Source: a virus
IMG/VR virus record: IMGVR_UViG_3300033141_003168
Span: 32,001-96,000 of that record
Strand: one strand, 5' to 3'
Length of the DNA: 64,000 nucleotides
Under the pieces are notes generated by a model. It searched no databases and was not told where the DNA came from. It worked only from the letters and a program-made list of their open reading frames with translations. This document shows, one piece after another, positions 716 through 63,800 of this stretch; the stretch's first letter is position 1, and every line of letters starts with the position of its first letter. The translations under genes and the position numbers were made by a program.

Positions 716-2230
716 GTGGAAATGGAATTAGACAAAAACACGGTCAATAACGACGCATGGGATTTAGGTACTTACGCAAACCTCGAAAAGGACTCCGACG
801 TACTACAAGAGGTTTCGAGCGAAGGTACGGATACATTAAATACCTTTCCGCACTTGATGGAAGACTTGTTTTCATCATATTTTAAGTTCGCGCCGAAAGT
901 GAAAGAAGAGGTTTCTTCGGAAGTAAGTCTGAACAAAAGCCTCATCGAGGAAACCATGACCACCAGTGAATACGGCAACTTGAGAATGGCAACACAGTTA
1001 GACGAATTCAATTCGGCAATGGCAGTTGCGGTGACCTCAAAGGAACTCGTAGAAAAGATCAGAGAATCAAGCGAACTTTCAGAGGCGGCGCGGGACGCGA
1101 ATCAAGTGAACGCATTGTCCACAGAACAGGCCGACATTGACGCAAGCCTTGAGTCGTTAAGAGACTTGTTAAAAAACAAGCTGAAAAAACCTTTAGAGAA
1201 CAAATTGAAAAGGAAGCAGGGGCAGTTACAGAAGGACGCGAAGAAATGTTCATCTCAACTTGCCGCAAGTGAGAAGCAAATGCAAAAGTCCATAAGCGGG
1301 ACACGCGACCAACAACGGGTAGCAATGAGGGCGGCGGTTCAGGCCGCGTCAGACAAGGTAGATGAAATGTCGCAACAGTGTGACGCATGGGGCAGTGAAC
1401 CGGGTGCGATTACTAAGATGCCATTGGGCCAAAAAATTGCACTTGCGAAAAGGTTGTCAAACGCCGACAAGTTAAAAAAGATTGCTGAGTATGCGGGGCG
1501 TATAAAGAACATCGCGTTTCGTAAACAACAAACAAGAATCAAACGTGGTGCAACAGAAATAGAGTCCATTGAAACCGGCAACGACTTGGGTAAGATGTTA
1601 CCAAGTGAACTCGCACTTTTAACACCGGAACTTGAAGACGAATTTCTCCGTAAATATTCCGAGAAAGGATTATTGCAATACAGCCTGAACTCGAAAGAGA
1701 AATTAGGTCGTGGGCCGATGGTAGTTTGCATTGATACTTCCGGTTCGATGAGTGGTCAACGGGAGTACTGGTCAAAGGCCGTCGCACTCGCACTTTCGAG
1801 TATTGCAATAAAAGAGAAACGAGGGTTTGTTTTGATCTTCTTTTCATCTGGTAGTGATTGTGTTGAATTTGAGTTTCCCATAGGCGGGAAAGATCGACTT
1901 CAAAACATGATGTCTGCAATGGAAACATTTATCGGTGGCGGTACGGATTTTGAAGTACCGTTGGTGAGGGCCATGAGTTATATTGAAGGTTCGGAATACA
2001 AGAAGGCAGACATCATTTTCATTACCGACGATGAGTGTGATGTTAGTGATAGCTTTGCTAAAGAATTTGATGCCCTAAAAGAAGAAAAAAGATTTTCTTG
2101 CTTTGGAATTTCGGTGGAAGCTTCGCATAACACGCTTGATACTTTTTGCGACAAAGTATTTCCTATTCACGAAATGGCAAACGACGTGGCAGTGTTGGAC
2201 GGTTTATTCAGTGTAGATTATTCAAAATAA
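716..2230 (+). CDS. VWA-domain protein (ViaA-like partner of the AAA ATPase)
   Basis: MIDAS motif 'CIDTSGSM', 'GGTDF' and 'IFITDD'; long N-terminal coiled coil. Confidence 0.85.
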   Translation: MEMELDKNTVNNDAWDLGTYANLEKDSDVLQEVSSEGTDTLNTFPHLMEDLFSSYFKFAPKVKEEVSSEVSLNKSLIEETMTTSEYGNLRMATQLDEFNSAMAVAVTSKELVEKIRESSELSEAARDANQVNALSTEQADIDASLESLRDLLKNKLKKPLENKLKRKQGQLQKDAKKCSSQLAASEKQMQKSISGTRDQQRVAMRAAVQAASDKVDEMSQQCDAWGSEPGAITKMPLGQKIALAKRLSNADKLKKIAEYAGRIKNIAFRKQQTRIKRGATEIESIETGNDLGKMLPSELALLTPELEDEFLRKYSEKGLLQYSLNSKEKLGRGPMVVCIDTSGSMSGQREYWSKAVALALSSIAIKEKRGFVLIFFSSGSDCVEFEFPIGGKDRLQNMMSAMETFIGGGTDFEVPLVRAMSYIEGSEYKKADIIFITDDECDVSDSFAKEFDALKEEKRFSCFGISVEASHNTLDTFCDKVFPIHEMANDVAVLDGLFSVDYSK

Positions 2231-2255
2231 ACTACTACGGAAACCGGATTAATAA
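2229..2255. repeat. 27-bp palindromic element, copy 1
   Basis: AAACTACTACGG-AAA-CCGGATTAATAA; overlaps the VWA stop and precedes the next RBS. Confidence 0.9.
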
Positions 2256-2272
2256 AAAAAGGAGAAAATATT

Positions 2273-2818
2273 ATGTCTAAATTTGAAATTGTAGTTTACG
2301 CAGTGAAAGAAATTATGGTTAACAGCACCGAAGAGGGTGCGGAAGTTGGAGAAAAAGAACTTAGTTTTCAAAAATTTCCTATAGCGTCTATTGTGTATTC
2401 TAAGGCAGTAGTTCTGGCGAGTTATGATCCTCGCGAAGTGTACTCTGTAGGTGTATCCGTAATGTCTGCAAAAGACAATCCCTGCAAGAAAACAGGTAGA
2501 GTGATAGCATCACAAAGGGCTATCGGTGTGCTACTCGCAGACAGGAATAACGGTGCTTATAAGAGACACGCCGAAGCGTACAAGAAGGATCGAAGCGTGG
2601 TGCATAAGAATGTGCGTGTTATCACCGAACTTGAAGGTATTGTGGATGTACGTTTTTTTAGTTATACACTTGTGAGCGCAAGCGGGAAATATTATTTTAC
2701 AACCGCAGATTTTGCTGTGCGCATAAATTTTATTTTTGGCGCATTACTCAAACCGGAGGATGTACCGGAGAAAATAAAAGCCGTGCTGGATAAGAAAACG
2801 GAGGTCGCTAAAAAATGA
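2273..2818 (+). CDS. hypothetical phage protein
   Basis: AAGGAG RBS; motif 'GVSVMSAKDNPCKKTGRVIASQRA'. Confidence 0.6.
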   Translation: MSKFEIVVYAVKEIMVNSTEEGAEVGEKELSFQKFPIASIVYSKAVVLASYDPREVYSVGVSVMSAKDNPCKKTGRVIASQRAIGVLLADRNNGAYKRHAEAYKKDRSVVHKNVRVITELEGIVDVRFFSYTLVSASGKYYFTTADFAVRINFIFGALLKPEDVPEKIKAVLDKKTEVAKK

Positions 2819-3678
2819 GCAAAGCGTTAACCGAACTACAAAAATCAATAGGCAAACATTCACTGTTAGGATCAATCGTGTACTGGTCATTTCATGATGT
2901 AGACATACCGGCAGACGAATTGCAAATGGCCCTTAATGCATACGATCTTGATTTAAAAGTTGCGAATGTTTCAGATCGCCGTGCGCTGACGAAAGCGTTA
3001 GGAATTTTGAAACGCGCCTCAAAAGATAAGTTAATAGACAAGATCATCGAGGACGAAGATCAAGTTGTGTATGCAGTGTTGGACAAAGCCGTTGATTATA
3101 AGGAAATGGAATTGAACGTCGAAAATCTTAATGCGGTAATTTTCGACAAGGCCACAAAGATACTTGAATTCAAGAAAAATGGTGACGCAATTTCTACCGA
3201 AGTCGAGGAGTTGTTTTATAGTCTTCAAGGTACATATAACGCGGAGGACATGAGGCGGTTGGTTAAAACCTTTATCAAGCGACTTGGAGGTCTGACCTTA
3301 CGAGAACGTGGCGGTGTTTATTTTGTTCCGGTTACAGCATTGACGGAAGTTACAAAATTGAGTAAACTTGTCGATGCCCAATTTTCAGATTCCTACGTTG
3401 CGTCATTGGGAATCATTGACACAACAAAAACCAAAGCCACAGTGGAACGGGACTTCAATCGTGAGATGGTTTCGGAGATAGAATCGGCGGCAAATGAACT
3501 TGTAACGCTTCTTGGTAGTAATGATGAAGTCAGGGCGTCGTCGCTCGAAGTCAGACTAAAAAGATACAGGTTCATGCGGGACAAGGCTGAAATGTATGCC
3601 GAACTTTTACAGGCTGACTCAGGAGTGTTGTTTAAAAAGATACGCAAGATGGAAAAGATAGTTACGGAAATGTTATGA
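2815..3678 (+). CDS. conserved protein of AAA/VWA loci (DUF6744-like)
   Basis: 'LGSIVYWS' and 'LRERGGVYFVP' motifs; context next to AAA-VWA. Confidence 0.55.
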   Translation: MSKALTELQKSIGKHSLLGSIVYWSFHDVDIPADELQMALNAYDLDLKVANVSDRRALTKALGILKRASKDKLIDKIIEDEDQVVYAVLDKAVDYKEMELNVENLNAVIFDKATKILEFKKNGDAISTEVEELFYSLQGTYNAEDMRRLVKTFIKRLGGLTLRERGGVYFVPVTALTEVTKLSKLVDAQFSDSYVASLGIIDTTKTKATVERDFNREMVSEIESAANELVTLLGSNDEVRASSLEVRLKRYRFMRDKAEMYAELLQADSGVLFKKIRKMEKIVTEML

Positions 3679-4421
3679 TTGAACCGAACAACACAAAAAA
3701 GAAAACATGTCCGACCTGCGGAAATTCATTTGAAACTGAACATGGACAAAAGAAGTATTGCAATGACGACTGCTGGCCTTGTCGAAGCAAGACGTACTGG
3801 AAGCCGGGAGGAACCGGTGTTAAGAAAATGTTACAAGACGAGGCGCGGCGCAAACGGTACGAGAGGTTGAAGTGGTACATAAAATTCGGTTTGAACCAGT
3901 CTGAAATCGCGAAGGAGGAAGGTTTATCACGACAACGAATTTCTCAGTTAATTAAACGGTACGATTTGTATGAACTGTACCTCGATGTTAAACGAAGTTT
4001 GTCTGCTAAATTTTGTAGTAGGTGCGGTAAACTTATAGAAGATAAAACGGTACTTGCGATTAATTGTGTTGATTGTTCTCCGATTCCGATTATGGAACCA
4101 CGTCCATGCAAAGGTTGTGGGCGTAGTATTACAACGGCAAGTTGGGGTTACTGTCAAACGTGTTACCGTAAGTACGGGCCGAAAAACAAAACGTGTTCTT
4201 TATGTGGCGCAAAAACTGTAGTTCTTTTAGGCAAAGGTTTATGTACTGTGTGTTATCAGCGGTTATATCACAGGGCCAAAGTTGCGGCAAACGGCGGGGT
4301 ATTAATTCCGCGTAGAATTGTAACCAATCAGGAACTTAAAATTTGCGAGGAGATGAAAAGCGAGATGCTTTTAAGCCCTAAACGGAAAGGGGGTAGGCAT
4401 AAACGCACGACCGTTAGATAA
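3675..4421 (+). CDS. multi zinc-ribbon protein with HTH
   Basis: Many CxxC pairs and the HTH 'LNQSEIAKEEGLSRQRISQLI'. Confidence 0.65.
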   Translation: MIEPNNTKKKTCPTCGNSFETEHGQKKYCNDDCWPCRSKTYWKPGGTGVKKMLQDEARRKRYERLKWYIKFGLNQSEIAKEEGLSRQRISQLIKRYDLYELYLDVKRSLSAKFCSRCGKLIEDKTVLAINCVDCSPIPIMEPRPCKGCGRSITTASWGYCQTCYRKYGPKNKTCSLCGAKTVVLLGKGLCTVCYQRLYHRAKVAANGGVLIPRRIVTNQELKICEEMKSEMLLSPKRKGGRHKRTTVR

Positions 4422-4448
4422 AAGTTAGTAATGAAAGGAGCCAATAAA

Positions 4449-5489
4449 ATGGCAAAGAAAAAAGTAGCAAAGAAATCAAAGGTAAAGACTGGAACAAAGA
4501 CGACAAAAAAGAAATCAACGGGAGCAAAAGCGACAGAAAAGAAAGTCAATAACGTCGGGCCAATTAAACAAGTTGATCCGAAAGAATTAAGTATTCACAA
4601 ACTGAATGCAAAATTCTTTGGCGCGATGGGCGCGGACGAGTTTGCGAAATTAAAAGACGACATCAAGGCAAACGGAATTCGCGTACCGCTTATTGTAACA
4701 AAGGACATGGAGATCATCGCGGGCAAGACAAGGTTGAAGATTGCGAAGGCACTCAAGTTAAAAGTGGTGCCGGTTACAATCGTCGGGTTTCCCGATGAAG
4801 AAGCAGTAGCAAGAGCCGTTGTGGGCGACAACATCCTCCGCAGGCAACTGATAAAGTCCGAGAAAGTTCGTATCGGTAAAGAACTTGAAGTCATGTTTAA
4901 GAAAACCGGTGGGGTTGAGAAACCCGGCAGGCCGAAGAAGGACAAAGCAGGTAAAGCAAAAGATCAGAAGAAAAAAGTCGGTGCGAAATATGTGAAGACT
5001 GGTAAAACCGCCGCCGATAAAGCAGCGGAAGAAATGGGTATTTCGCCTACACAGTATCAGGACACAAAACGCGCCGTCAAAGTTCCGAATGAAGTTGTGA
5101 AACGGCTTGACGCAGGCGACATTTCAATTACTCTTTCAGGTTCGATTTCCAAACTGCCGCCCGAAGGCAAAAAGAAGGCTGCGTCGATTTGCAAGAAAAC
5201 GGAGAATAAAAAAGTCTTGAAAGAGATGTTGGAAGCTCTTGTAAAATCGTTTACAGGCGAGGACGCAAACGCGGACAAGATCGTAAAGAAGGCAAACATC
5301 CTCAATGCAAGACTTCTTGATTTCATCGACAACGACTTAGCGCCGGTGTGGGCCAATGTTTCTGAAGGAAAGAGGACGGAATTTATCCAGAGTTTCAGGC
5401 AGATTCAAACTCGAATCGTCAAGATGAAAGAGGACGTGAATGGCGACAAAAAACCCGCAGACAAAAAGAAGAAAAAAGCGAAGAAGTAA
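4449..5489 (+). CDS. ParB-like protein (ParB-N domain plus HTH), Lys-rich termini
   Basis: 'DDIKANGIRVPLIV...IIAGKTRL' ParB box and HTH 'AAEEMGISPTQY'. Start moved to the ATG after AAGGAG. Confidence 0.8.
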   Translation: MAKKKVAKKSKVKTGTKTTKKKSTGAKATEKKVNNVGPIKQVDPKELSIHKLNAKFFGAMGADEFAKLKDDIKANGIRVPLIVTKDMEIIAGKTRLKIAKALKLKVVPVTIVGFPDEEAVARAVVGDNILRRQLIKSEKVRIGKELEVMFKKTGGVEKPGRPKKDKAGKAKDQKKKVGAKYVKTGKTAADKAAEEMGISPTQYQDTKRAVKVPNEVVKRLDAGDISITLSGSISKLPPEGKKKAASICKKTENKKVLKEMLEALVKSFTGEDANADKIVKKANILNARLLDFIDNDLAPVWANVSEGKRTEFIQSFRQIQTRIVKMKEDVNGDKKPADKKKKKAKK

Positions 5490-7533
5490 AGCAGTAATAA
5501 AGTTTCAACGAGTAGATGATTATGTGTGGGTAGCGTTTCCTTACGACGAGGAAATTCTTGCAGAGGTACAAAAGGTTGAGGGGCGAATTTGGGACGGACA
5601 AGTAAAGCAGTGGAAGGTGCCCGTTGAATGTTTTAAGGAGTTACATCATTACACCAAAGGCTTTCAACGGGAGTACGCGCCGAACCTGCTTGCACCACAC
5701 CTGTTTATCTCAGATCGCTACCCTTACCAGTTGCGATTACACTCTTTGAGTAAAAAGACTCGCGCACAAATCAAGGGTGAATATAAAACCGATCAATTCG
5801 GGATCATTAAACCCGGTCAAGCCATAAGGGCTTTGAAGTCCAGTTCGTTCGTCGTAGACGATCAGAGGGCTATTATGGACTTCATTGAATTGTTACACAA
5901 GGTCAGAACTTCCGTACCCAAAGCACCGGGGATAATTAGGACAGGCAAAGCGTTATTTCCTTATCAATATAAACCCGTCAATACGATGTTAGCCTTCAAG
6001 AGAATAATCGTTGGCGACGAGATGGGATTAGGAAAAGCCGCCTACGGAGTTTTCGCTTTTGCACGATTGCTTTTTCTCAAAAGGATTTCACGTTGTCTTG
6101 TAGTTTGTCTTTCGAGTAAAAAGTATGACTGGCGCGACGAGTTCGATTTTTTCACTAAAGGAATTTCAACGGCAGTTGTTGACGGCGACAAGGTGAAGCG
6201 AACTGACATTTGGAACGGTACGCAAAATGTTACCATCTGCAATTACGAACAACTGGTTAGTGATTTTGGTGAATCGACCACACAGTTTTGGGATGTGGTA
6301 ATGGCAGACGAGATTACTAAGATCAAATCTTTCAAGTCGAAGCGCACTAAGGCTTTTCGTAAATTAGAATCAGAATATCTGTGGATGTTTTCGGGTACAG
6401 TTGTCGAGAACAATTTGTATGAGTTATATAATGCCTTGCGAATATTACATCCCACAAAACTTGAACCTGTTCGACAGTTCGGTATGCGATATGTTAAGCA
6501 AGATCAGTGGGGTGGTATCAAAGGGTATCGTAACATGGACGAGATCAGGGCAAGAGTTCAAGGTATTGTAGTCAGGAGGTTTCGCGAAGATAAAGAGGTT
6601 ATCACAGGTGGCCTCGACAAACAACCCACGGTACACGACGAAGACCCCATCATCGTTGATTTGTGTCCTGTCACACAACGACTTTATAATGCAGTGTCGG
6701 AGGATATGCGCACGACGGCGAAAGCTGCAAATAAATTTGCCCGTGAATTTGGCGCGATGAACCGACTAATTGCAGAACTGATTGAACAACGCGACGAGAT
6801 AAAAAGGATCAAGGTGAAAAAGAAAGTCACAAGGAAAATCAATCGGCTTACCGAAACAATCGAACCAATTAGGAAAGACATGATGGAATTGAGAGGCGCG
6901 ACGGTTTCCTTGTTTACCTTGTTAAGGCAGATTGGGGATTCGCCTTTTTTGTTGCATGACTCGAACGCGGAGGTTGCGGAGAAGTATCAAATCGAGTATC
7001 TTTCAAAATCAGAAGAAGCGCACTCAACGAAGCTTCACAAGTTAGTGTGGTTGTTGCAGGAGGAAATTCCCGAGGGCGCGAAGGTCATAGTGTTCTCGTG
7101 TTTTGAAAGGATGGTACGAAGGATCGCACAAGAATTGAAGTCACACGGTATTACTCGAATGACAGTGGACGGATCGTTAGGAGCAGATGCAAAGTATCAA
7201 AGAGTGCAATCATTTAAGAAACGGCGTACTCGCATCCTTGTCGCTACTGATTGTTTGGCCTACGGCCAGAATCTACAAGAGGCTCAGTATATTGTGAATT
7301 ACGACTTACCTTTTAATCCCGCTGTGTTGCAACAACGCAACATGAGAAATAATCGTGGTGTAGCTACCATGTTTGATGATTTATATATTTATAATTTAAT
7401 TGCCAACACTCCGGTTGAGTTGCGTGTTCTTGAAGTCCTAAAGCCCAAGGTCGAAGTTTCTAAACAGGTGTTCATGTCCAAAAAGAGACAAGGGTTTGGT
7501 TTCAAGGGAATAGTTAAACTCTTGGAAATTTAA
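5440..7533 (+). CDS. SNF2-family helicase with N-terminal HARP-like domain
   Basis: 'GDEMGLGK', 'ADEIT', 'SGTVVENN', 'YGQNLQ', 'YDLPFNP'; N-terminal 'FPYD...RIWD...WKVP'. Confidence 0.85.
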   Translation: MATKNPQTKRRKKRRSKAVIKFQRVDDYVWVAFPYDEEILAEVQKVEGRIWDGQVKQWKVPVECFKELHHYTKGFQREYAPNLLAPHLFISDRYPYQLRLHSLSKKTRAQIKGEYKTDQFGIIKPGQAIRALKSSSFVVDDQRAIMDFIELLHKVRTSVPKAPGIIRTGKALFPYQYKPVNTMLAFKRIIVGDEMGLGKAAYGVFAFARLLFLKRISRCLVVCLSSKKYDWRDEFDFFTKGISTAVVDGDKVKRTDIWNGTQNVTICNYEQLVSDFGESTTQFWDVVMADEITKIKSFKSKRTKAFRKLESEYLWMFSGTVVENNLYELYNALRILHPTKLEPVRQFGMRYVKQDQWGGIKGYRNMDEIRARVQGIVVRRFREDKEVITGGLDKQPTVHDEDPIIVDLCPVTQRLYNAVSEDMRTTAKAANKFAREFGAMNRLIAELIEQRDEIKRIKVKKKVTRKINRLTETIEPIRKDMMELRGATVSLFTLLRQIGDSPFLLHDSNAEVAEKYQIEYLSKSEEAHSTKLHKLVWLLQEEIPEGAKVIVFSCFERMVRRIAQELKSHGITRMTVDGSLGADAKYQRVQSFKKRRTRILVATDCLAYGQNLQEAQYIVNYDLPFNPAVLQQRNMRNNRGVATMFDDLYIYNLIANTPVELRVLEVLKPKVEVSKQVFMSKKRQGFGFKGIVKLLEI

Positions 7534-7557
7534 TTACTACGGAAACCGGATTAGTTT
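7531..7557. repeat. 27-bp palindromic element, copy 2
   Basis: TAATTACTACGG-AAA-CCGGATTAGTTT; its TAA is the helicase stop codon. Confidence 0.9.
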
Positions 7558-7575
7558 TCGGAAAGGAGGGACACG

Positions 7576-8073
7576 GTGGCAAAGGTTGATAAGGCGTGGT
7601 GTATAAAAGAGTATCTTGAAATCGCGAGGGAAGAAGTGAAGATTAAAATCAGGAAAGAACGACTGGCAACGGCAATACAAAAACTCGCGGATAAGTTTGA
7701 CAAAGGTACTCCGAAAAATGCAACGCGCAAGTTTGAGGTAGTACACGGTAACAGGAAATACCGTTGCTCCAAAATAGCAAGGTCAACAACGATAGCACTG
7801 TCGGGTGTTGTTGAGGATGTGTTGGGTAAGGAAGCGAAAAACTTTAAAGTTGCAATCGTTAAGGTCGATGACAAATCACTGTCAGGCGATTGGGCCGAAA
7901 TTCCTAAAGAGGCAAAGGTTGCCTTAAAGCCCTACACGAAAGTCAAAAAGGAATACGACGTTAAGAAATTAAACGACGCATTTCTGAAAGGTGACATTAC
8001 CAAATCGCAACTTGTTTCAATGACAGAAGAGGTGGTTGTGTATAATGTCAAAGTTAGTGTTTTAAAGAAGTAG
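7576..8073 (+). CDS. hypothetical protein
   Basis: GGAGG RBS before a GTG start; 165 aa, basic. Confidence 0.6.
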   Translation: MAKVDKAWCIKEYLEIAREEVKIKIRKERLATAIQKLADKFDKGTPKNATRKFEVVHGNRKYRCSKIARSTTIALSGVVEDVLGKEAKNFKVAIVKVDDKSLSGDWAEIPKEAKVALKPYTKVKKEYDVKKLNDAFLKGDITKSQLVSMTEEVVVYNVKVSVLKK

Positions 8074-8108
8074 CGGTACTATAAAAACGAAGAGGAGCCA
8101 GAAGACAA

Positions 8109-9041: not shown

Positions 9042-9052
9042 GGAGAAGAAGG

Positions 9053-10309: not shown

Positions 10310-10327
10310 GAAAGGAGTTTACCAAAA

Positions 10328-11242: not shown

Positions 11243-11254
11243 AGGAAAGGTTGA

Positions 11255-12196: not shown

Positions 12197-12416
12197 AGGA
12201 TATTTTATTTATGTTTATATTGGGATATGCGCAACGAAACACGCCGCGAACAACCTTAACGTCGTGAGAACGTGTTTTCGTTGCGTAAATCGCCATACAG
12301 AGCGCAATTACTGTACCTGTTGCGCCTTTACGTTGTACAATAACGACGGTTAAAGAATTGGGGGTGACAATAACATCGTTAAGTTAAGAAAAATAAAAGG
12401 ATGTCGCCGTTGCGAA

Positions 12417-16133: not shown

Positions 16134-16304
16134 TTATGATTTTAAAACTTTCATCGCAGTAACATTCGCGAGTATATTTTCATTGATTGCTATATATTTA
16201 CCGCATCTTTATAATTTTGCCATTTTTTATCTTTTATTTATGATAATAATTTTGCAGTTAAGCCCGGACGAATAATGAAGTATTCTTAAAACAGAAAAGG
16301 AGAA

Positions 16305-16874
16305 ATGAACATGGGATTTGACTTAGGAGATTTGAAACGACTTGGCAAGAAGGTTTTGAAGAAGGGTGGCGCACCGATATTAGGTACATTACTCGGTGGG
16401 CCTGCCGGTTCGATTGCGGGAGATATTCTTGGTAATTTGTTTGGCGGCGACAAAAGTGCAAAGGAAATTGAAAAACTAATTGACACCGATCCTGCCGCTT
16501 ACGCAAAACTCAGAGAATATGAAATGAAACACAAAGAGGCGTTACAGCAACTTGAGATTGAAGAAAAGAAAATGTATCTTGTCGATATTCAATCAGCGCG
16601 GACACGTGAAGTAGAATTTGTAAAAGTAACCGGAGGACGTGATTGGTTTCATACTATTGTCGGTTCACTTGTGGTTGCCGGATTTATGGCAACTGTGGTT
16701 ATTTCTTTTAAGATTGTGCCGCCTGTGGGATCGGAACGTCTCATTGGAATTTTAATAGGTACACTTGGGGCCGGATTCATTCAGGTGTTAAATTATCTTT
16801 ATGGTTCTTCAAAAGGTAGTGCCGACAAGGCGAAAACACTTGAACGAATTGCCGCGAATGGCAGCGGAAAATAA
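16305..16874 (+). CDS. holin-like membrane protein
   Basis: 'APILGTLLGGPAG' N-terminus, coiled coil, two TM helices, 'YLYGSS'. Confidence 0.55.
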   Translation: MNMGFDLGDLKRLGKKVLKKGGAPILGTLLGGPAGSIAGDILGNLFGGDKSAKEIEKLIDTDPAAYAKLREYEMKHKEALQQLEIEEKKMYLVDIQSARTREVEFVKVTGGRDWFHTIVGSLVVAGFMATVVISFKIVPPVGSERLIGILIGTLGAGFIQVLNYLYGSSKGSADKAKTLERIAANGSGK

Positions 16875-16899
16875 ACTACTACGGAAACCGGATTAATTA
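16873..16899. repeat. 27-bp palindromic element, copy 3
   Basis: AAACTACTACGG-AAA-CCGGATTAATTA, overlapping a stop codon. Confidence 0.9.
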
Positions 16900-18058: not shown

Positions 18059-18072
18059 TAATCGGAGGCAAT

Positions 18073-19194
18073 ATGGCGAAGAAAAAATCTGTCAAGAAAA
18101 AGAAGAAGGCCAAAAAAGAAGTTGTTCTTACGGAACGAGAACAAGGCTTAGTCGAACGCGTCTTCGAACTCAACAAAACTTACGGCAAAGAAGAGGCATT
18201 TATTTTGCCGGGATCAGATGTGGTGTTCGGAAGTGTAAGGATGCAACCCACGGGCATACCGGCACTTGATAGAATGTTAGGTGGTGGATTTCCCGAAGGA
18301 AAAAACATTGAAGTATTCGGGCCAGAGGGTGGTGGGAAAACGACTCTTGTTCTAAATTATGTAGGTGAGAGGATGAAGGAAGACAAGATGTGCGTTTGGT
18401 TCGATGCGGAAGATTCCCTTGAAGTCCAGTGGGCAAAAAAGTTCGGGATTAGGGTTCAGAAACAACGCAAAGGTGAATCATTAAAAGATGCGTTAATTCG
18501 CGCAATCACTACGAGGTCATTGCTATTATGTAAACCTCAAGTTGGGGAACACGCCCTTGATGCAATGAAAGCGTTCTGCGGCTTTGTTGATGTGATGGTT
18601 GTTGATTCTGTTCCGGCATTGCAACCTATTGCAATGTTGGAAGCATCGAATCTTGACAATTTCATGGGACTAAAGGCGAGAATGATTTCACAAGGGATCG
18701 ACAACATTGTTTCTGTGAATAAGAAGAAAGACCCTTCAACGATAATTTGGATCAATCAGTTAACTACAAATATTGGTGGGTATGGTAATCCTGAAATAAC
18801 GCCGGGAGGAAAACGCCTCAAGTTTTATGCGAGACTAAGACTTGGAGTGCGGCAAATTGCGTTTGAGAAACTCGACAAAAAAAATCCTCGTCCCGGTCAA
18901 AGAATTGCTTGTTATGCAAAAAAGAATTCCTATTACCCGCCACACCGTAAGGCACAGTTCAACCTTATGTATAAGGGTCACTTTGATATTAAAGGTCAAA
19001 TTATTGATCTTGCAAAGGAGTATGAGATCATAGAACGCAAGGGATCATATCTTCACTACAGAGGAGAGAAACGGCAAGGCGATACTAATTTCAAAAAATT
19101 TCTTATCAGGAATCCCGACGTATATGCCGAACTTTTAGAACTTGTTGTTGAAAATATTAACGAGGAGATTGCAGATACGAAGGGAATATTTTAA
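18073..19194 (+). CDS. recA: RecA recombinase
   Basis: 'TGIPALDRMLGGG', 'GPEGGGKTT', 'VVDSV', 'WINQL', 'TPGGKRLKFYA'. Confidence 0.93.
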   Translation: MAKKKSVKKKKKAKKEVVLTEREQGLVERVFELNKTYGKEEAFILPGSDVVFGSVRMQPTGIPALDRMLGGGFPEGKNIEVFGPEGGGKTTLVLNYVGERMKEDKMCVWFDAEDSLEVQWAKKFGIRVQKQRKGESLKDALIRAITTRSLLLCKPQVGEHALDAMKAFCGFVDVMVVDSVPALQPIAMLEASNLDNFMGLKARMISQGIDNIVSVNKKKDPSTIIWINQLTTNIGGYGNPEITPGGKRLKFYARLRLGVRQIAFEKLDKKNPRPGQRIACYAKKNSYYPPHRKAQFNLMYKGHFDIKGQIIDLAKEYEIIERKGSYLHYRGEKRQGDTNFKKFLIRNPDVYAELLELVVENINEEIADTKGIF

Positions 19195-19218
19195 TTACTA
19201 CGGAAACCGCAGTAGTTT
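19192..19218. repeat. 27-bp palindromic element, copy 4
   Basis: TAATTACTACGG-AAA-CCGCAGTAGTTT; its TAA is the recA stop codon. Confidence 0.9.
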
Positions 19219-19233
19219 ATTTGAGGAGCAGTC

Positions 19234-26451: not shown

Positions 26452-26478
26452 AAACTACTCCGGTTTCCGTAGTAATTA
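26452..26478. repeat. 27-bp palindromic element, copy 5
   Basis: AAACTACTCCGG-TTT-CCGTAGTAATTA, intergenic. Confidence 0.9.
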
Positions 26479-31927: not shown

Positions 31928-31954
31928 AAACTAATCCGGTAACCGGGGTAATTT
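31928..31954. repeat. 27-bp palindromic element, copy 6 (degenerate)
   Basis: AAACTAATCCGG-TAA-CCGGGGTAATTT, intergenic before an RBS. Confidence 0.8.
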
Positions 31955-34365: not shown

Positions 34366-34392
34366 AAACTACTACGGTTTCCGTAGTAATTA
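34366..34392. repeat. 27-bp palindromic element, copy 7
   Basis: AAACTACTACGG-TTT-CCGTAGTAATTA, intergenic. Confidence 0.9.
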
Positions 34393-37479: not shown

Positions 37480-37506
37480 TAATTACAACGGTTTCCGTAG
37501 TAATTA
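37480..37506. repeat. 27-bp palindromic element, copy 8
   Basis: TAATTACAACGG-TTT-CCGTAGTAATTA; its TAA is the upstream stop codon. Confidence 0.9.
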
Positions 37507-45155: not shown

Positions 45156-45182
45156 TAATTACCCCGGTTCCCGTAGTAATTA
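45156..45182. repeat. 27-bp palindromic element, copy 9
   Basis: TAATTACCCCGG-TTC-CCGTAGTAATTA. Confidence 0.85.
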
Positions 45183-45406: not shown

Positions 45407-45433
45407 AAATTACAACGGAAACCGTAGTAGTTT
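45407..45433. repeat. 27-bp palindromic element, copy 10
   Basis: AAATTACAACGG-AAA-CCGTAGTAGTTT. Confidence 0.9.
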
Positions 45434-47131: not shown

Positions 47132-47158
47132 TTATTACTACGGAAACCGGAGTAATTT
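47132..47158. repeat. 27-bp palindromic element, copy 11
   Basis: TTATTACTACGG-AAA-CCGGAGTAATTT. Confidence 0.88.
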
Positions 47159-48194: not shown

Positions 48195-48221
48195 AAACTA
48201 ATCCGGTTTCCGTAGTAATAA
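48195..48221. repeat. 27-bp palindromic element, copy 12
   Basis: AAACTAATCCGG-TTT-CCGTAGTAATAA, upstream of the ComM-like gene RBS. Confidence 0.88.
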
Positions 48222-48511: not shown

Positions 48512-48739
48512 TTAAACTTCCGTTTCGATTCCCGTTGCGATGTGTACTGCGGATCGAATATAATCTGAAAGCGAATTAAATCCGAGTTCCTTTGCCTTTC
48601 TCTGCGCGAGACGCTTGTTATACTCTTCGTCCTTATAGAAGATCATAACCGGCTTTTCAAAAATAGATTTGCGACCGGCACCGGCTCGAAAACCGCCCAT
48701 CGTTTTCTTCTGTTTAATCTTCGGCTGCTTTTGATTCAT
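48512..48739 (-). CDS. small DNA-binding protein (ribbon-helix-helix-like)
   Basis: 'GGFRAGAGRK' followed by 'AKELGFNSLSDYIR'. Confidence 0.6.
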   Translation of the reverse strand: MNQKQPKIKQKKTMGGFRAGAGRKSIFEKPVMIFYKDEEYNKRLAQRKAKELGFNSLSDYIRSAVHIATGIETEV

Positions 48740-51670: not shown

Positions 51671-51697
51671 TAATTACTACGGGAACCGTTGTAGTTT
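51671..51697. repeat. 27-bp palindromic element, copy 13
   Basis: TAATTACTACGG-GAA-CCGTTGTAGTTT. Confidence 0.88.
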
Positions 51698-51708: not shown

Positions 51709-51921
51709 ATGAGTAAGAGTAAATATCGCAGATTGAACATACAACTTGAACCGGAACTTATCAGTAAGCTTGATGAGGTTGCAAGTGAAATCGGACTTGA
51801 GAGGGCGGCACTGATTCGAGTCGTGTTGTGGTTATTTATAAAAGTAATAACGACGTTTCCGAATTCAAAAGTGAAAAGGGTTTTGCATGACTCTATCGAA
51901 AACACAACAAGCAAAAGATAA
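51709..51921 (+). CDS. ribbon-helix-helix (CopG-like) protein
   Basis: 'RLNIQLEPELISKLDEVASEIGLERAALIR'. Confidence 0.7.
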   Translation: MSKSKYRRLNIQLEPELISKLDEVASEIGLERAALIRVVLWLFIKVITTFPNSKVKRVLHDSIENTTSKR

Positions 51922-55706: not shown

Positions 55707-55710
55707 ATAA

Positions 55711-57780: not shown

Positions 57781-57821
57781 GAAAACATTAATTTTTAATT
57801 TAGAAATTACGGGAGGACAAA

Positions 57822-60800
57822 ATGGATTTAGAAAAAATTTCAGTACCTTATGAAAACCTCAATCAAATAAAAGAACTCGACGACGACGTACTCCTTGACG
57901 ATCACCGCTGGATGCATGTTTATTGGGCTAACTTAAAACGCGGAAATAAAATGGAGAATTGGGATAAAGAAATCGTAAAGAAAACCCATGCCGCAATAGT
58001 ACAGGAAATGTTACTTAGATTTTTCTTTCCCGCGATGGCACTTGAACTCGACCAGACAGAAGAAACTATTAAAGTTGTTACTGAATGGTTAGAATTAGGT
58101 GCAATGAAAGTTATAAGTGCCGCAGAGGGAATGGATTTAATTCGTACTGAAAGTTTTATTGAAAATGTTCATAAACACACAAAAATTCCACAAGGGATTT
58201 TAATTGCACTTTGGAATGTAGTTGAAATGGAATTAAATAATCGCGGTATGCCGGGAGGAAATGAACCGTCCTGGAATCAGGAAAAACAACAAAGTGGTTC
58301 CGGTCGTGGTTCGGCAGGAAAGCAGAGAGGCAGTTATAATAGTCCCACGTTCGCCTACATAGCAGTTTACGGCAAAGAACCTGATATACCTTTAAGCGGC
58401 AGAATAAACAGCCCTGAGAAGGAATGGAAAGATGGTATACTCGTAGACGAACATTTAAAACTCGAATGGCTTGATTCAATCGACGCAATCGAGGAACTTG
58501 AGTTGAGAGCTTCATGTGAAGGCCACGGTGAAAACAGGGTTACGCATGTGGTTGTTCGTTTAAAATCGCGTAACGAAACCGAAAGCAAAAAATTAGTTGA
58601 AGTGTTAAACAATAAAGACGATATTTATTCAAAATATGATGTAGGAACAGAAGGATATCCCCGAATAGTTATTGCGGGAAAAACGTGGTACGGTCAACCA
58701 GGTTGGAATGATTGGTGGGAGACTTTATCTGAAAAAATAAAAACGGCACTAAAAGCAATTAAGAAAGAGCTTGAAGAAAATTTATCAGTAGGAAAATCTT
58801 TACTCGTTTGTTCCAATTCGGAATGGTATTCAAAATATTCTTTACCGATCGCAGAATCTGACATAGAAGAAACGGATTGGATTGAATTTGAAAAAACGAA
58901 ACCGCCTTTTATGTCGCCCGGTGGCAAGATGCGGCAATCAAAACAACTTGTAACTTACATACCCGAACATAAGATTTACTGTGAACCGTTTGCGGGGGCG
59001 GCAAACGTATTATTTAGGAAAGAACCTTGCGAAAATGAAATTCTTTCCGATCTTGATTCGGATTTAATTGTTACGTGGAAGTTCATCAAAAGTTGTTCTG
59101 AAATTGATTTGGGAAAATTGTCAAGATTTTATTGGGAGCGGCCCAAAGATAAAAAACATTTTAAATCTATTTCAGATCAAGAATGCGATAGCATGCTTGA
59201 TACGGTTTATAAGTTTATGTATGTTCGTTACTGGGGTTTCCGAGGCGGTAAAACATTTAGTGAATCAATCGCACAAGATCGCACGGCACTTCAAGGATCG
59301 GCATGGGAACGAATTAAAGGGAAAATAGTACGGGCTAAAGATCGAGTTAAGAATGTGAAGTTCGAGCGGGCGAATTACGAAGATGCCATCGCAAAACACG
59401 ATTCCAAAATTACGTTTTTTTATCTTGACCCGCCTTACGGCAAGACAGGTGCACACTATTGGAAAACTTTAGATTATGAAAAACTCCTAAATGTGGTAAA
59501 AAAAATAAGAGGCAATTTTTTATTGCAACTTCACAATGATGATAAAATAAAAAATTTATTTGGAAAGCATTTTAAAATTTACACAATCACTGCTCGATAT
59601 ATTAGAAATCAATCGTCGCCAGACATGGGACAATTATATAATGAGACGGAATTACTTATAAGCAACTATGAATTAAAAACAAGTGCAAGTAAGTCATTTG
59701 CAATGGACGATGATCTTGCACCCGTGGCATCTTCAGGAATAGAGTTGGGTAAAGAAATTCAGTTTGATGACATTCTTTCCGACTTCAACGACGATTATGT
59801 AATTGATCCGGCTTTCATTTCTCTTGGCGGGAACATTCTTTCGGGTGAAACAGATGAAATGGTTGATTACCACGTGAGTGGAAATTTCGGGCAAGATTTC
59901 AAAGTGCCACTTGAATTCAGACTTGGACGCGGTTCATCTTTTACCGAACGGCAGTCAATAAATTATCATGCCGAAAAAACGGATGTAGAATTAGAACCGC
60001 TATATGCACTCGTAGCGCGAAGGATAAATAAGAAAAATACTATCATACAAATGAACTTTACGGATCGCGTTTCTACTCCGCAGAATCCTCCTGATTTAAT
60101 TACTCCGGAAACCGGAGTAGTTTTTGAAAAAAGTGGTGAAACAAATCTGATTTTAAAAGAAACCGTCATAAATGAGGCAAAGGCATTTATACTTGTTACG
60201 CCATTCGTTTACGTAGTAGGTGGTGTAGTTACGCAAGGCGCAACCAAAGGCGATGTAGACATTCTTATTCGAGGACAGTTCGATGAACCGTTTCTTAGTA
60301 AAATTACACAACCGCTAATTGATAGATCGAGTACACCAAAACGACTTCACTTTCTTGACGACAAATATCACGGCCCATTTACTGCTCACGTTCCGATTTA
60401 TGAATTGATGCTTGTGCCGGTAAGTTTGCTGGAAAATTCAGATACAAAAAAACAAAGAGTGGCTTCGCCAGAATTAATAAGGGAGGCGGCGCGGTCAAAA
60501 TCAGAAGATCGTATAGAAATGTTTCGCTTCTTCACCGCAATGAAACCGACGAAAGGATTTTTTCCGGAACAACGACAAACAATAGATGCGTTTTTATCGC
60601 TTTTTAAGGAAGACAATTTTCCAGTAATGGCGACTAAAAAATATGATGGTATGGCTTCGCTGTGTTGGAAGTCCGGAAAGCGTGTAGAAATATGGTCTAT
60701 CGAAGGAGAAAATAATACCGACCGTTTTCCGAATGTCGTAAAAGAAATTCAGGAACTAAATGCGGATGAACTCGCTTTGCTTATTGAAATTGAAATGTGG

Positions 60801-63800
60801 GACGACGGGAAACATTTACCGCGCGAAGCGACTGTTGGTTATGTACATTCTGATAGTCCCGCTGATGATTCACAGATAACCGCAAACGTGTTTGACATAG
60901 TTTACGTTAAGGGCCTTGAGACAGACGTAAAAGACTTACCAGAGGGCGATATACACAAAGAACCCTTTTCGATACGTGACGACGTTTTGAAGGCACTTTC
61001 GTTTGAACAAGAGACCGATGGTGTACCTGATCCTAAAATTAAATTGAATCGCACACCGTCGCATAAAGCAGAAAATGCGGAAGAACTAAAAAAACTTACG
61101 AATAAATTATCGGCTACTCCGGGATCGGAAGGGGTTGTTGCCAAACCAGCGAAAGGAACTTACGTGCTTCATGGTCGTCGCGGAGAACAAATTAAGTTTC
61201 ATGTTTCCGCCGTTGCAAATGTAATCGTAATAAAAAGAATTCCCATTTCGGGAGCAAAAAATGTTTACACTTATTTATTTGGTTTTAAAGTTCAAGGACA
61301 GGACATTTCCGATAAAAAACGGGTAAGGATGCGCGGTAAAGAATATCTTTCTTCAGGGAAAACATTTAATACTTCTCTACTCGCAAAAGTCGGTGAAGTA
61401 ATAGAAATCGAATTTGAACAACTTAATTACATTATTAATCTCGATTCCGGCGAAGAAGATGTGACTTTGTGGGCACCGCGAGTAATGAGGAAAATAAATG
61501 TCGCAGGAGATTCAATTGCTGGTGTGATTAAAAAGGCAAAAGATGAAAATATTTTAGTTACGAAGGAAATTGAAAACAAAACGATAGTTTACAAAACGTG
61601 GGATAATTATAATGAAAATTTTCTTAAATCATTATTTAATGAGTATAATGTAGAATGGATTAAAGATGTTTCTATTAATAATGATTCCTTTAGTAAATCT
61701 GATTTTTATAATGATTTTAGTAAAAAAGCTGATTCACTTAGCGGTCTTATTTCAATAGACTTATGTAGCGGTGCGGGTGGATTATCGCTCGGTTTAGAAA
61801 AGGCTGGATTTTCCACCGCTATTATGTCTGACTTAGATGATGATTCAATGATTACGGCAGAAAAAAACTTTAAGAACACTGTTATTTGGAAAGCAGACCT
61901 ATTTAAATTAGACTTCCAAAAACTTCATAAATCACTTAGAGGAAAACAACTTAATCTTCTGGCAGCAGGTCTTCCGTGTCAAGGACATTCAGTCAGAGGT
62001 AAAGGTAAACATTCTGAGTCAGTAGATGAAATAGAGAATACACACGAGTCTTTTAATAAACTTTATAAATATTTTCTTAAAGGCGTTATGATACTACAAC
62101 CTGAATTTATTCTTATAGAAAATGTTCCCGGAATTTTAAGTAATGAAAACGGGAAATATGCTAATTTAATCATATATGGATTAAAAAAATTAAATTACGA
62201 TGTTGAATATAAAATTTTAAAAGCTGAAGAGTATGGAGTTCCACAAATAAGAAGAAGAGTCTTTTTTATTGGAAATAGGCTTGGCCTTCCGATAATTTAT
62301 CCGAGAAGCACCGAAAAAAGAATTTCAACTTGGGATGCGATTAAGGATTTAAGTAATAAATCTGAAGACGTGGATTTTGGGCACATAATTCCGAAACACT
62401 CAACAGAAACCAAAAACAGAATTAGTCAAGTGAAGCCCGGAAAAAAATATGTAACTGAAAGTGGAAAAGAGGGTTATGCTTTAAGGAGAATACCTAAAGA
62501 TAAACCAGCTTATACAATACTTGCTTCAACTACGCTTATACATCCAACTCTTGATCGTTTTTTAACGCCGCGTGAATGTGCAAGGATACAATCATTTCCT
62601 GATTCTTTTAAATTTCATGGAGGTTCTCAAAGTCAATTCCGGCAGATAGGTAATGCGGTTCCTCCTGAATTAGCAAAAGCCATAGGCTTAGTTATGAAAA
62701 AACAATTAGTAAATTACAAAAATTCAAAAGAAAAAATTTATAAAAATTTTGAAAAACAAAAAGACCCATATATGATTATTCCCGATGAAAATGAAATTTA
62801 TAATTTTGTAGCACAACATCATGCCAGAGGCAAAAGTATCCACACCGATCTTCGTATGGAGTCCGAAGATAAAGATTTTCTTATTGGGTACACACTGGAC
62901 GATCAAATAAAGAGTGCGATTAAAGAACCGATTTTAACTTTAGCGCAACTAAAAAAAGTAGATGCAGACGATTCCAATTTCAAAATAAATTGGTCGGATG
63001 GAACATGGGATAAAAGAAAACGCGGTGAAGTGTTAGTAAATGTAAATATCAATACTCAGAAGAAAGCAATAGAACCAGTTGAATGGTTGGGCTATGAAGG
63101 AGTTGTTGAAAGCGGTGGCGAAGAAAAACCCGCACCCGGTGCGACACGATTTTTTCCCGGCGTGTTTCATGTAGTAGATAAAGGCACGGTAGAATATGGT
63201 TCGCAACGAAGTTATTTTCATGAGTATTTTTTAAGCGGAAAAAAATTAAATTATAGAATCATCGTCAGACTTTTAAACCTTCCCGCTGGAACAGAAGGCG
63301 ATATTCCCAAATCGTGTCTGGTTGCAGATGATTTTATTATAGGAAAAGAAGAAAATTTAATTACTACGGAAACCGGATTAGTTTATAAAGATTCGTTGAA
63401 AGCAGAGGAAATTTTACCACCTTCGGAGCCTCAAGAAGTATCAGTACCGGGGCCAATTCGGCTGACCATGAAGCCCATAGATCAAAGACCTTATGTACTT
63501 TCAAAGCGAGCAGTCGATAAAGGTTGGATGCCTCCTGATAAAAAATCGGCTTTGCCAAAACAAATCAGAAAAAAGATTCCTGATGAATTTCAATATTGGA
63601 AAGTTACTGGTACGAAGGCGCGAGACATTAGGGATTCGCTTGTCAAAGCTATTAAAGACGGCGTGGTAAAAATAGAGTTTGAGGAAATTCGTAAACAGGA
63701 AGAGGATAAAGAAATCAAGGGTGATTATACTTTCAGCTACCAATGGTTCAAGGGGCCGGTTGTAGTACGCGAAGGCCCGTCAAAAGAACAGTGGCATATT

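What the first reader, a model, noticed from the sequence alone, without database searches (positions are those of the whole stretch)
2229..63384. Fifteen dispersed copies of a 27-bp palindrome (WAAYTAnnnCGG-N3-CCGnnnTARTTW)
Seen: copies start at 2229, 7531, 16873, 19192, 26452, 31928, 34366, 37480, 45156, 45407, 47132, 48195, 51671, 60097 and 63358, in both orientations and in every module. Many fill the gap between a stop codon (often supplied by the element's own TAA) and the next RBS. The outer AYTA/TART and inner CGG/CCG are conserved, while the three middle bases vary independently in the two arms, without compensatory change. Inference: this fits a dimeric-protein DNA site better than an RNA hairpin or terminator. 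Most copies are not at recognisable promoters, so a genome-wide organising site (parS-like for the ParB at 4449, a stoperator-like silencing array, or a packaging/protection signal) is plausible.
Basis: partly seen in the sequence, partly recalled or inferred. Interest (0 to 1): 0.82.

Follow-up and report, generated by a model that had tools for sequence, protein, structure and literature searches.

The report
Evenly spaced phage docking-site palindromes
A complete 110-kb uncultured phage genome carries 23 evenly spread copies of one 25-letter near-palindrome, kept at the same places in diverged relatives, which most likely are double-stranded-DNA docking sites for one of the phage's own DNA-binding proteins, though which protein reads them is untested.

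Summary
All 15 copies are at the stated places (0.09 expected by chance), and the complete 110,331-bp phage genome has 23. Twenty lie in short gaps between a stop codon and the next ribosome-binding site. Three lie inside genes, all read in the same frame.

At eight comparisons with relatives of about 63-75% protein identity, a site sits at the same position. The element is 77% identical there, against 32% for its flanks, and no empty site was seen.

As RNA the common form folds weakly (-2 to -5.5 kcal/mol), with no strand preference and no U-tract. The sites are not promoters or terminators, and no host-genome array was found. They are spaced more evenly than chance (largest gap 9.5 kb, P about 0.001).

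Best reading: docking sites on double-stranded DNA for a phage protein. The leading candidate is a ParB-like protein with no ParA partner. A conserved CopG-like ribbon-helix-helix protein is the main alternative. Binding is untested.

Closest published precedent: the unexplained 17-bp repeats of Cluster O mycobacteriophages. Earlier notes of this scan report similar arrays with partner-less ParB proteins in other phages.

The parts
2230..2254 (+). palindrome copy, CTA-CGG-AAA-CCG-GAT form; the upstream stop TAA overlaps its first base
7532..7556 (+). palindrome copy (CTA/GAT form) after the SNF2 helicase gene; stop TAA overlaps the element
16874..16898 (+). palindrome copy (CTA/GAT form); stop TAA overlaps the element
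19193..19217 (+). palindrome copy (CTA/CAG) directly after the RecA gene
26453..26477 (-). palindrome copy, polarity inverted (CTC-TTT-TAG) although the flanking genes are on +
31929..31953 (.). palindrome copy with no CTA half (ATC-TAA-GGG)
34367..34391 (.). palindrome copy, the only one with two CTA halves (perfect arms apart from position 3, TTT centre)
37481..37505 (-). palindrome copy, inverted polarity (CAA-TTT-TAG), before the M16 peptidase gene
45157..45181 (-). palindrome copy at the convergent junction of the + and - gene blocks
45408..45432 (.). second copy 251 bp further on at the same convergent junction; relative L035 has a matching pair at 3472 and 4207
47133..47157 (+). palindrome copy in the - strand block, 22 nt from a TTTACA-17-TATAAT promoter on the - strand
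48196..48220 (-). palindrome copy between two - strand genes (stop, element, SD, start on the - strand)
51672..51696 (+). palindrome copy 12 nt upstream of the RHH gene that precedes the large terminase; orthologous to L035:9797
60098..60122 (.). copy in frame in the giant ORF (reads LITPETGVV), between the Dam and ligase domains; orthologous in-frame copies at L035:17586 and L034:17592
63359..63383 (+). copy in frame in the giant ORF (reads LITTETGLV), after the C5-methylase domain; orthologous in-frame copy at L016:465
4431..5489 (+). candidate reader 1: ParB-like protein without a ParA partner (ParB N-domain, GRPKK arm, HTH, long C-terminal helices)
51709..51921 (+). candidate reader 2: CopG-like ribbon-helix-helix protein, conserved in relative L035 with the same R-N-Q strand residues
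3675..4421 (+). candidate reader 3: HTH protein with several zinc ribbons
48512..48739 (-). candidate reader 4: small protein that looks RHH-like by eye only; no family hit

Best explanation
The 25-bp element (29 bp with its flanks), consensus AAYTA-CTA-CGG-AAA-CCG-GAK-TARTT, is a sequence-specific docking site on double-stranded DNA for a phage-encoded dimeric or oligomeric DNA-binding protein. The phage keeps one site at least every 9.5 kb around its whole chromosome. Sites sit in the few non-coding bases at cistron junctions where such bases exist. Where they do not, the site is written in frame into gene sequence. The even spacing suggests that the bound protein acts over kilobases from each site. 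It could spread or slide as a ParB/KorB-type clamp, or act as a repeated roadblock, and so coat, organise or silence the whole genome rather than regulate single promoters. My ranking of the reader protein is: the ParB-like protein at window 4431-5489, which has no ParA partner (about 0.35); the conserved CopG-like RHH protein at 51709-51921 (about 0.15); another phage protein (about 0.1). Shown here: the sites, their number, their conservation at the same positions in relatives, their polarity, their even spacing, their poor RNA folding, and the folds of the two candidate proteins. Inferred: that a protein binds the sites, which protein it is, and what binding does.
For: There are 15 copies in the window against 0.09 expected, and 23 in the complete genome. 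About 4% of the genome is non-coding, yet 20 of 23 sites are intergenic. In eight comparisons with relatives L016, L017, L034 and L035, a site lies at the same place as seven of our sites. These relatives share 63-75% protein identity with this phage. The element is 77% identical there, against 32% for 90 nt of flank, and no empty site was seen. Three copies inside genes use the same reading frame and are kept in frame in the relatives while the encoded peptide changes, for example LITTETGLV against LITADSAVI. Sequence is conserved but pairing is not. Spacing has CV 0.56 against 0.94-1.02 for random placement (P 0.0008-0.003). The largest gap is 9.5 kb against 18-20 kb expected (P 0.0002-0.0014). 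The ParB-like protein matches ParB, Spo0J, Noc and KorB structures over the N-domain plus HTH. No ParA gene is present. The RHH protein is conserved in L035 directly downstream of the orthologous site, with identical predicted base-contacting residues. Published precedent: Cluster O mycobacteriophages carry more than 30 copies of TGTTCGG-NNN-CCGAACA, most often with an AAA/TTT centre, and encode a ParB-like protein; the function is unknown (PMC4351075). Corndog gp90 aligns with our ParB-like profile at 88% probability.
Against: No binding data exist. The site is 25 bp, longer than a 13-16-bp parS or OB site. Its polarity (one CTA half in 20 of 23 sites) is unexpected for a simple homodimer. 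Only one ParB ortholog was found among 5.8 billion proteins. It lies on a 29-kb contig and not on the 109.7-kb relative that carries the array, so that relative may lack the gene. Distant ParB_N-bearing viral contigs showed no palindrome arrays. The ParB box II reads GKTR rather than GERR. A host factor cannot be excluded, because the host is unknown.
Confidence: 0.6

Rival explanations
1. The sites are phage-specific promoters or activator sites for middle or late transcription, each starting a transcript just upstream of the next ribosome-binding site.
For: Sites lie 12-29 nt upstream of start codons. Each phage lineage has its own consensus at orthologous positions, as T7-like phages do. 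An HTH protein with weak sigma-70 region 4 similarity is encoded.
Against: No phage RNA polymerase was found (the PF00940 control was uninformative). Five to seven sites have inverted polarity relative to the downstream gene. Three sites lie inside genes, and two lie at a convergent junction with no gene downstream. No further conserved -35 or -10 element lies at a fixed distance.
Confidence: 0.1
2. The element acts as an RNA hairpin: a terminator, attenuator, processing site or mRNA-stabilising structure between cistrons.
For: It has inverted-repeat form and a location between stop codon and ribosome-binding site. Some copies fold well, from -10 to -14.5 kcal/mol.
Against: The commonest form folds at only -1.9 to -5.5 kcal/mol. 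Mean energy is the same for sense and antisense (-6.5 against -6.8). No U-tract follows. There is no compensatory change: C·A mismatches at 7 sites, and G·U is not favoured on the sense strand. The terminator scan flags none of the four sites in window 1-20000. Inverted copies would give different loops. The copies inside genes are the most stable ones.
Confidence: 0.05
3. The copies are a miniature mobile or REP-like element, or a recombination junction that shuffles gene modules.
For: The copies are dispersed and mostly intergenic. An IS607-type TnpA/TnpB pair is present. Sites persist in the poorly conserved - strand block, where the flanking genes differ between relatives.
Against: All seven of our sites that the relatives' conserved regions cover are occupied at the same position, and no empty site was seen. 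No site lies next to the IS. No copies form arrays in 185,579 species genomes. There are no target-site duplications, and no Y1 (RAYT-type) transposase was seen. Even spacing is not expected for a mobile element.
Confidence: 0.05
4. The sites bind a host protein, such as a global regulator, a nucleoid protein or a topoisomerase, which the phage recruits.
For: No reader protein has been shown, and the host is unknown.
Against: A strict-pattern scan of one genome per 185,579 species gave only 25 scattered hits. The only multi-hit genome showed copies of one repeated sequence with identical flanks. The consensus differs between phage lineages (AAA centre and GAK arm here, AWT centre and YAG arm in relatives), which fits a co-evolving phage factor better.
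Confidence: 0.08
5. The site is a polar signal for replication or packaging, for example fork or translocase guidance, or priming on extruded single-stranded hairpins.
For: The sites are polar. Polarity is clustered: a run of 5-6 inverted sites lies at genome 58-77 kb, while 15 of 16 sites elsewhere point the other way (P about 0.006-0.013). The phage encodes its own PolIII alpha, beta clamp, DnaB, DnaG and RecA.
Against: Third-codon GC skew shows no step that matches the polarity domains. The hairpins are weak. No such system with 25-bp pseudo-palindromes is known to me.
Confidence: 0.07

Closest known systems
17-bp dyad repeats of Cluster O mycobacteriophages (Corndog: TGTTCGGNNNCCGAACA; PMC4351075)
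   Same: Both have tens of copies spread through a phage genome and dyad symmetry around a 3-bp A/T-rich centre, most often AAA/TTT. Both share the CGG-N3-CCG core. In both, many copies are intergenic and some lie inside genes, positions are shared among relatives, most copies are not at promoters, and there is no integrase or ParA. A ParB-like protein is encoded in both.
   Different: The phages are unrelated: no protein similarity apart from one weak hit in the giant ORF's methylase region. The length is 25 bp rather than 17 bp, the outer arms differ, and the site here is polar. The bias toward intergenic positions is stronger here (20 of 23 against about 14-24 of 34). The function of the Cluster O repeats is itself unknown.
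KorB and its OB operators on IncP plasmid RK2 (PMC11790492; PDB 8qa8, 8qa9)
   Same: Palindromic sites are dispersed over a mobile replicon and read by a ParB-family protein that loads there and slides to act at a distance. The ParB-like model here matches the KorB structure.
   Different: KorB works with IncC (a ParA) and KorA. No ParA is found here. OB is shorter than this 25-bp site. Binding here is untested.
Noc and its Noc-binding sites on the Bacillus chromosome (PDB 7nfu, 7ol9)
   Same: Noc is a ParB-family protein that works without ParA and binds many palindromes scattered over a chromosome. It is among the best structural matches to the ParB-like model.
   Different: Noc is a cellular division regulator. 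The site sequence and length differ. No membrane-targeting helix was examined here.
Stoperators of Cluster A mycobacteriophages, as described in PMC4351075 and from my own knowledge
   Same: Many repressor sites lie across the genome, typically in short intergenic gaps near start and stop codons, and are proposed to silence by blocking elongation.
   Different: Stoperators are asymmetric and strictly oriented with transcription, and they belong to temperate phages. Here the site is a pseudo-palindrome, its orientation follows transcription only loosely (about 14-15 against 5-7), and no integrase was found.
CopG and Arc-type ribbon-helix-helix operators (PDB 1b01, 1ea4, 1par)
   Same: The inner 15 bp, CTACGG-AAA-CCGTAG, has the size of an RHH tetramer operator, with two subsites about 9 bp apart around an A/T-rich dyad. 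A CopG-like protein is encoded next to a conserved site.
   Different: Known RHH repressors control one or a few promoters rather than 23 evenly spaced sites. The conserved outer AAYTA blocks are not explained by this model.

Membership tests
ParB-parS / KorB-OB type docking-site system | A ParB-family protein (N-terminal CTPase fold plus HTH DNA-binding domain) is encoded by the same replicon | tested here: met
   Pfam ParB_N. Profile hits to ParB, Spo0J and Noc chains at E 5e-9. The predicted structure matches ParB, Noc, KorB and Spo0J over about 230 columns.
ParB-parS / KorB-OB type docking-site system | The protein binds the palindrome specifically and closes as a clamp with CTP | not testable with these tools
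   This needs EMSA or DAP-seq and a CTP-dependent cross-linking assay.
ParB-parS / KorB-OB type docking-site system | Nucleotide-binding motifs (GERRxRA, ENLQR) are intact | tested here: inconclusive
   The sequence reads IIAGKTRLKIA and GDNILRRQL. The glycine, the last arginine and the RRQL part are kept in the ortholog, but the first arginine of GERR is absent.
ParB-parS / KorB-OB type docking-site system | A ParA-type ATPase partner is present (needed for partition) | tested here: not met
   PF13614 and PF01656 have no match in the complete genome, and the controls rang in 14 of 14 genomes.
ParB-parS / KorB-OB type docking-site system | Protein and site array occur together in relatives | tested here: inconclusive
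   The only ortholog (P0002, 47% identity) lies on a 29-kb contig that I could not fetch. None is attributable to the 109.7-kb relative that has the array.
Cluster O-type dyad repeat array | Tens of dyad-symmetric copies with an A/T-rich 3-bp centre, genome-wide, at shared positions among relatives | tested here: met
   paper PMC4351075.
Cluster O-type dyad repeat array | Same repeat sequence or a related phage | tested here: not met
   Only the CGG-N3-CCG core is shared. tblastn found no protein similarity apart from one weak hit in the giant ORF's methylase region.
Stoperator array | Asymmetric site, oriented with transcription throughout | tested here: not met
   The polar form points with transcription at about 14-15 sites and against it at 5-7.
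Intrinsic terminator | Stable G+C-rich stem followed by a U-tract | tested here: not met
   Energies range from -1.9 to -14.5 kcal/mol (mean -6.5), with only 3 G-C pairs and A-rich or mixed tails. The scan flags none.
REP / MITE | Presence/absence polymorphism, copies in the host genome, a cognate transposase | tested here: not met
   The seven of our sites that the relatives cover are all occupied there. No arrays occur in 185,579 species genomes. No Y1 transposase was seen in the Pfam scans.
RHH (CopG/Arc) operator | An RHH protein is encoded and conserved together with the sites | tested here: met
   P0116 and P0117 are homologous and share the strand residues R-N-Q. The top fold matches are all RHH proteins, with CopG at 35% identity and TM 0.71-0.76, though E-values are weak.
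RHH (CopG/Arc) operator | The RHH protein binds the site | not testable with these tools
   This needs EMSA or footprinting.

The most novel reading that the evidence does not exclude
A lytic-type phage with no ParA and no integrase marks its whole chromosome with evenly spaced, polar loading sites for its own ParB-type clamp. It writes the sites in frame into genes where no intergenic space exists. The clamp then coats, organises or times expression of the entire viral genome. This would be a viral chromosome-wide system of the KorB/Noc kind. It could also explain the long-unexplained Cluster O mycobacteriophage repeats and the similar arrays that this scan has noted in other uncultured phages.
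Probability: 0.3. Interest if true: 0.8.

Novelty: new variant of a known kind. Interest (0 to 1): 0.6.

Why it matters
Genome-wide arrays of short palindromes have been reported in phages (Cluster O) without any explanation. ParB-fold proteins without a ParA partner are common in phages, and their role there is unknown (PMC12704722). This genome offers a clean test case. It has 23 sharply defined sites under clear purifying selection and a measurable spacing rule. It also has conserved copies inside genes and only a handful of candidate reader proteins. Showing which protein binds the sites, and whether it spreads, would assign a function to a class of phage proteins and to a class of unexplained repeats. 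The site could also serve as a sequence tag for recognising fragments of this phage lineage in metagenomes.

Tried and rejected
1. Host origin. A strict-pattern scan of one genome per 185,579 species gave 25 scattered hits. The only multi-hit genome showed four copies of one repeat with identical flanks.

2. More relatives. Two pattern scans of IMG/VR found only L004, L016 and L017. A vWA protein query found none. The TerL alignment on metagenomes gave L034, L035 and the distant L036, which has no array.

4. A fused or longer ParB form. None was found.

5. Palindrome arrays on 27 viral contigs with distant ParB_N homologs. None was found, and none in 83 control loci either. The detector needs exact 6-bp arms, so this result is weak.

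6. Kinship with Corndog. There is no protein similarity by tblastn, only a profile-level ParB match.

7. Replication-linked polarity. Third-codon GC skew shows no step at the polarity boundaries.

8. Phage RNA polymerase, integrase and ParA. None was found, but the RNA polymerase search had no working control.

9. A link to the IS607-type TnpA/TnpB pair. No site lies next to it, and the relative carries a TnpB-like ORF in a different context.

10. A helical-periodicity argument, with variable triplets facing the minor groove. I dropped it because the CTA triplet is itself well conserved.
Full report
**Observation.** Shuffled sequence gives a mean of 0.09 matches. The window is bases 32001-96000 of a single phage contig of 110,331 bp. 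The contig ends repeat 114 bp, and it is classed as complete with direct terminal repeats.

The whole genome holds 23 copies. In genome coordinates (window + 32000) they start at 5406, 8304, 16260, 22225, 28965, 30238, 34230, 39532, 48874, 51193, 58453, 63929, 66367, 69481, 77157, 77408, 79133, 80196, 83672, 92098, 95359, 101788 and 106225. A half-site score separates them cleanly from background. The 11-mers of this element are by far the most repeated words in the genome. Conservation runs from about 4 bases before the element to 3 after it, and no further conserved block lies within 70 nt on either side.

**Position.** About 96% of the genome is open reading frame, yet 20 of 23 copies are intergenic. 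At 7 sites the upstream stop codon TAA overlaps element bases 1-2, and at 12 it starts within 8 nt of the element. At about 16 sites a Shine-Dalgarno sequence and start codon follow 12-29 nt downstream.

Three copies lie inside genes. Two are in the 2,106-aa ORF that carries the Dam, ligase and C5-methylase domains, in the stretches between those domains. One lies at codons 12-20 of a 409-aa ORF outside the window. All three are read in the same frame, as ..T[TP]ETG[VL]V[FY].

**Relatives.** Pattern and protein searches recovered fragments of related uncultured phages:
- L016 and L017 from IMG/VR sample 3300031643.
- L034 and L004, which are the two ends of one 24-kb contig.
- L035, which is 21.5 kb of a 109,727-bp contig.

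Proteins are 63-75% identical to ours and gene order is kept. These phages carry their own version of the element, AAWTACTRCGG-AWT-CCGYAGTAATT.

Wherever the held DNA covers one of our sites, the relative has a site at the same place:

| Our site | Site in relative |
|---|---|
| 8304 | L017:9791 |
| 16260 | L017:1813 |
| 83672 | L035:9797 |
| 92098 | L035:17586 and L034:17592 |
| 95359 | L016:465 |
| 101788 | L016:6956 |
| 106225 | L016:11535 |

When the sequences are anchored on the element, the 25 bp are 77% identical (154/200), against 32% (231/720) for 45 nt on each side. The three copies inside genes are in frame in the relatives too, while the encoded peptide differs.

No empty site was seen. 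This argues for long-standing purifying selection on the DNA word itself and against a recently mobile element. A more distant relative (L036, TerL 37% identical) has no such array in the 20 kb held.

**Not an RNA hairpin, terminator or ordinary promoter.** Positions 3 and 23 pair as T/A in 8 sites, T/G in 6, C/A in 7 and C/G in 2, so they do not covary. The commonest form (CTA...GAT, 9 copies) folds at only -1.9 to -5.5 kcal/mol. The mean is -6.5 for the sense strand and -6.8 for the antisense strand. The tails are A-rich or mixed rather than U-tracts.

The consensus scan of window 1-20000 flags none of its four sites as promoter-like or terminator-like. Of about seven strong sigma-70-type promoters in the genome, only two lie within 50 nt of a site, and they do so in different geometries. 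No T7-type RNA polymerase was found, though that family search had no working control. No integrase and no ParA-type ATPase were found.

**Not a host repeat.** A strict version of the pattern hit only 25 scattered places in one genome for each of 185,579 species. The single genome with four hits showed identical flanks, so those are copies of one unrelated repeat.

First, the site is polar. Read inward, the triplet next to CGG is CTA in 22 of 46 half-sites. However, 20 of 23 sites have exactly one CTA half, where 11.5 would be expected (permutation P = 0.0006). In 19 of those 20 the centre reads AAA or GAA on the 3' side of the CTA half. The other arm prefers GAT, GAG or GGG over the palindromic TAG. 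The relatives' sites are more symmetric, so the polarity evolved in this lineage at sites that already existed.

Polarity follows transcription only loosely, at about 14-15 sites with and 5-7 against. Along the genome it is clustered. A run of 5-6 inverted sites lies at 58-77 kb, and 15 of 16 sites elsewhere point the other way (P about 0.006-0.013).

Second, the sites are spaced more evenly than chance. The coefficient of variation of the gaps is 0.56, against 0.94 for uniform placement and 1.02 for random gene boundaries (P 0.003 and 0.0008). The largest gap is 9.5 kb, against 18-20 kb expected (P 0.0014 and 0.0002). This gives a reason for the in-frame copies: without them the 6.3-kb giant gene and its neighbours would leave a long stretch with no site.

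**Candidate readers.**

The protein at window 4431-5489 has a ParB N-domain. Its profile matches ParB, Spo0J and Noc chains at E 5e-9. Its predicted structure (mean pLDDT 74) aligns over about 230 columns, covering N-domain plus HTH domain, with ParB-parS, Noc, Spo0J and KorB structures. Between the two domains this subfamily keeps a GRPKK motif. From general knowledge, this resembles AT-hooks and the minor-groove arm of Hin-type DNA-binding domains, and it could help read an 11-bp half-site; that is inference only. The protein has no ParA partner, so a partition role is unlikely.

Against this candidate, the only ortholog found (P0002, 47% identity) lies on a 29-kb contig that I could not fetch. 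None is attributable to the 109.7-kb relative that carries the array.

The second candidate is the 70-aa protein at 51709-51921. Its gene starts 12 nt after a conserved site and precedes the large terminase gene. Its ortholog in L035 sits in the same place and keeps the strand RxNIQLEPE. Its predicted fold matches CopG (35% identity, TM 0.71-0.76), Arc, ParG and NikR, although the E-values are weak because the protein is small. The inner 15 bp of the site has the size of an RHH tetramer operator.

Two weaker candidates remain. One is an HTH protein with several zinc ribbons at 3675-4421. The other is a second small protein at 48512-48739 that looks RHH-like by eye only.

**Comparison with what is known.** The closest published case is the array in Cluster O mycobacteriophages. 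Corndog has 34 copies of TGTTCGG-NNN-CCGAACA, most often with an AAA/TTT centre, at shared positions among relatives and mostly away from promoters. The authors suggested a dimeric DNA-binding protein and left the function open. Those phages also encode a ParB-like protein and lack ParA and integrase (PMC4351075).

The two phage groups are unrelated by tblastn. Corndog gp90 aligns with our ParB-like profile over N-domain and HTH at 88% probability. The shared CGG-AAA-CCG core is suggestive but may be coincidence.

In how it may work, the nearest model is KorB. KorB loads at dispersed OB palindromes on plasmid RK2 and slides as a CTP-dependent clamp to silence promoters up to 1.5 kb away (PMC11790492). 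Noc is a comparable ParB-family protein that acts without ParA and binds many chromosomal sites. ParB-fold proteins without a partner are common in phages and are uncharacterised (PMC12704722).

Earlier notes of this scan describe similar evenly spaced palindrome arrays with partner-less ParB/KorB-like proteins in several other uncultured phages. I treat these as leads and not as evidence.

**Verdict.** Which protein reads the sites, and what binding does, are inferred. I put about 0.6 on a phage-encoded docking-site array. Within that, about 0.35 goes to the ParB-like protein, 0.15 to the RHH protein and 0.1 to another phage protein.

This prevented the co-occurrence test that would most directly decide between the candidates.

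Noticed in passing
whole genome (G000:C1): The tetranucleotide CTAG occurs only 4 times in 110 kb, against about 393 expected from base composition (ratio 0.01). AGCT (0.30) and TATA (0.53) are also depleted. This suggests strong counter-selection, for example by a host restriction system.
   Followed up: no
window 41114-42891: An IS607-type pair is present: TnpA (MerR-type HTH plus serine-recombinase domain) and TnpB (OrfB_IS605 plus Cas12f-like TNB). A TTTACA-17-TATAAT promoter lies just upstream. Relative L035 has a TnpB-like ORF in a different context.
   Followed up: partly
window 28352-30499; genome 30450-32678 (L090:10450-12000): Two genes appear to carry inteins: a thymidylate-synthase-like gene (Intein_splicing, Hint) and a MoxR-type AAA ATPase (Hint plus LAGLIDADG homing endonuclease).
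   Followed up: no
window 12417-16133: The DNA polymerase III alpha subunit has an N-terminal uracil-DNA-glycosylase-family domain fused to it.
   Followed up: no
genome 101788-101812 (outside the window): A third copy of the palindrome inside a gene lies at codons 12-20 of a 409-aa structural-region ORF. It uses the same frame as the two copies in the giant ORF and is kept in frame in relative L016 at 6956.
   Followed up: yes
genome 28965 and 30238 (outside the window): Two palindrome copies closely flank the phage's own DNA polymerase III beta-clamp gene (29019-30227).
   Followed up: no
L034:17592 against L035:17586: Two relatives that are about 99% identical overall differ at 4 of 25 bases in the site inside the giant ORF, and the flanks differ too. 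This is a locally diverged patch. They also differ by a 1.3-kb indel about 250 nt from site L035:6352.
   Followed up: partly
window 4431-5489 and homologs P0002-P0009: This ParB-like subfamily keeps a GRPKK motif between the ParB N-domain and the HTH. The motif resembles an AT-hook or the minor-groove arm of Hin-type domains.
   Followed up: partly
genome 22225 (outside the window): One palindrome copy lies about 135 nt upstream of the TTTACA-17-TATAAT promoter at 22360.
   Followed up: no
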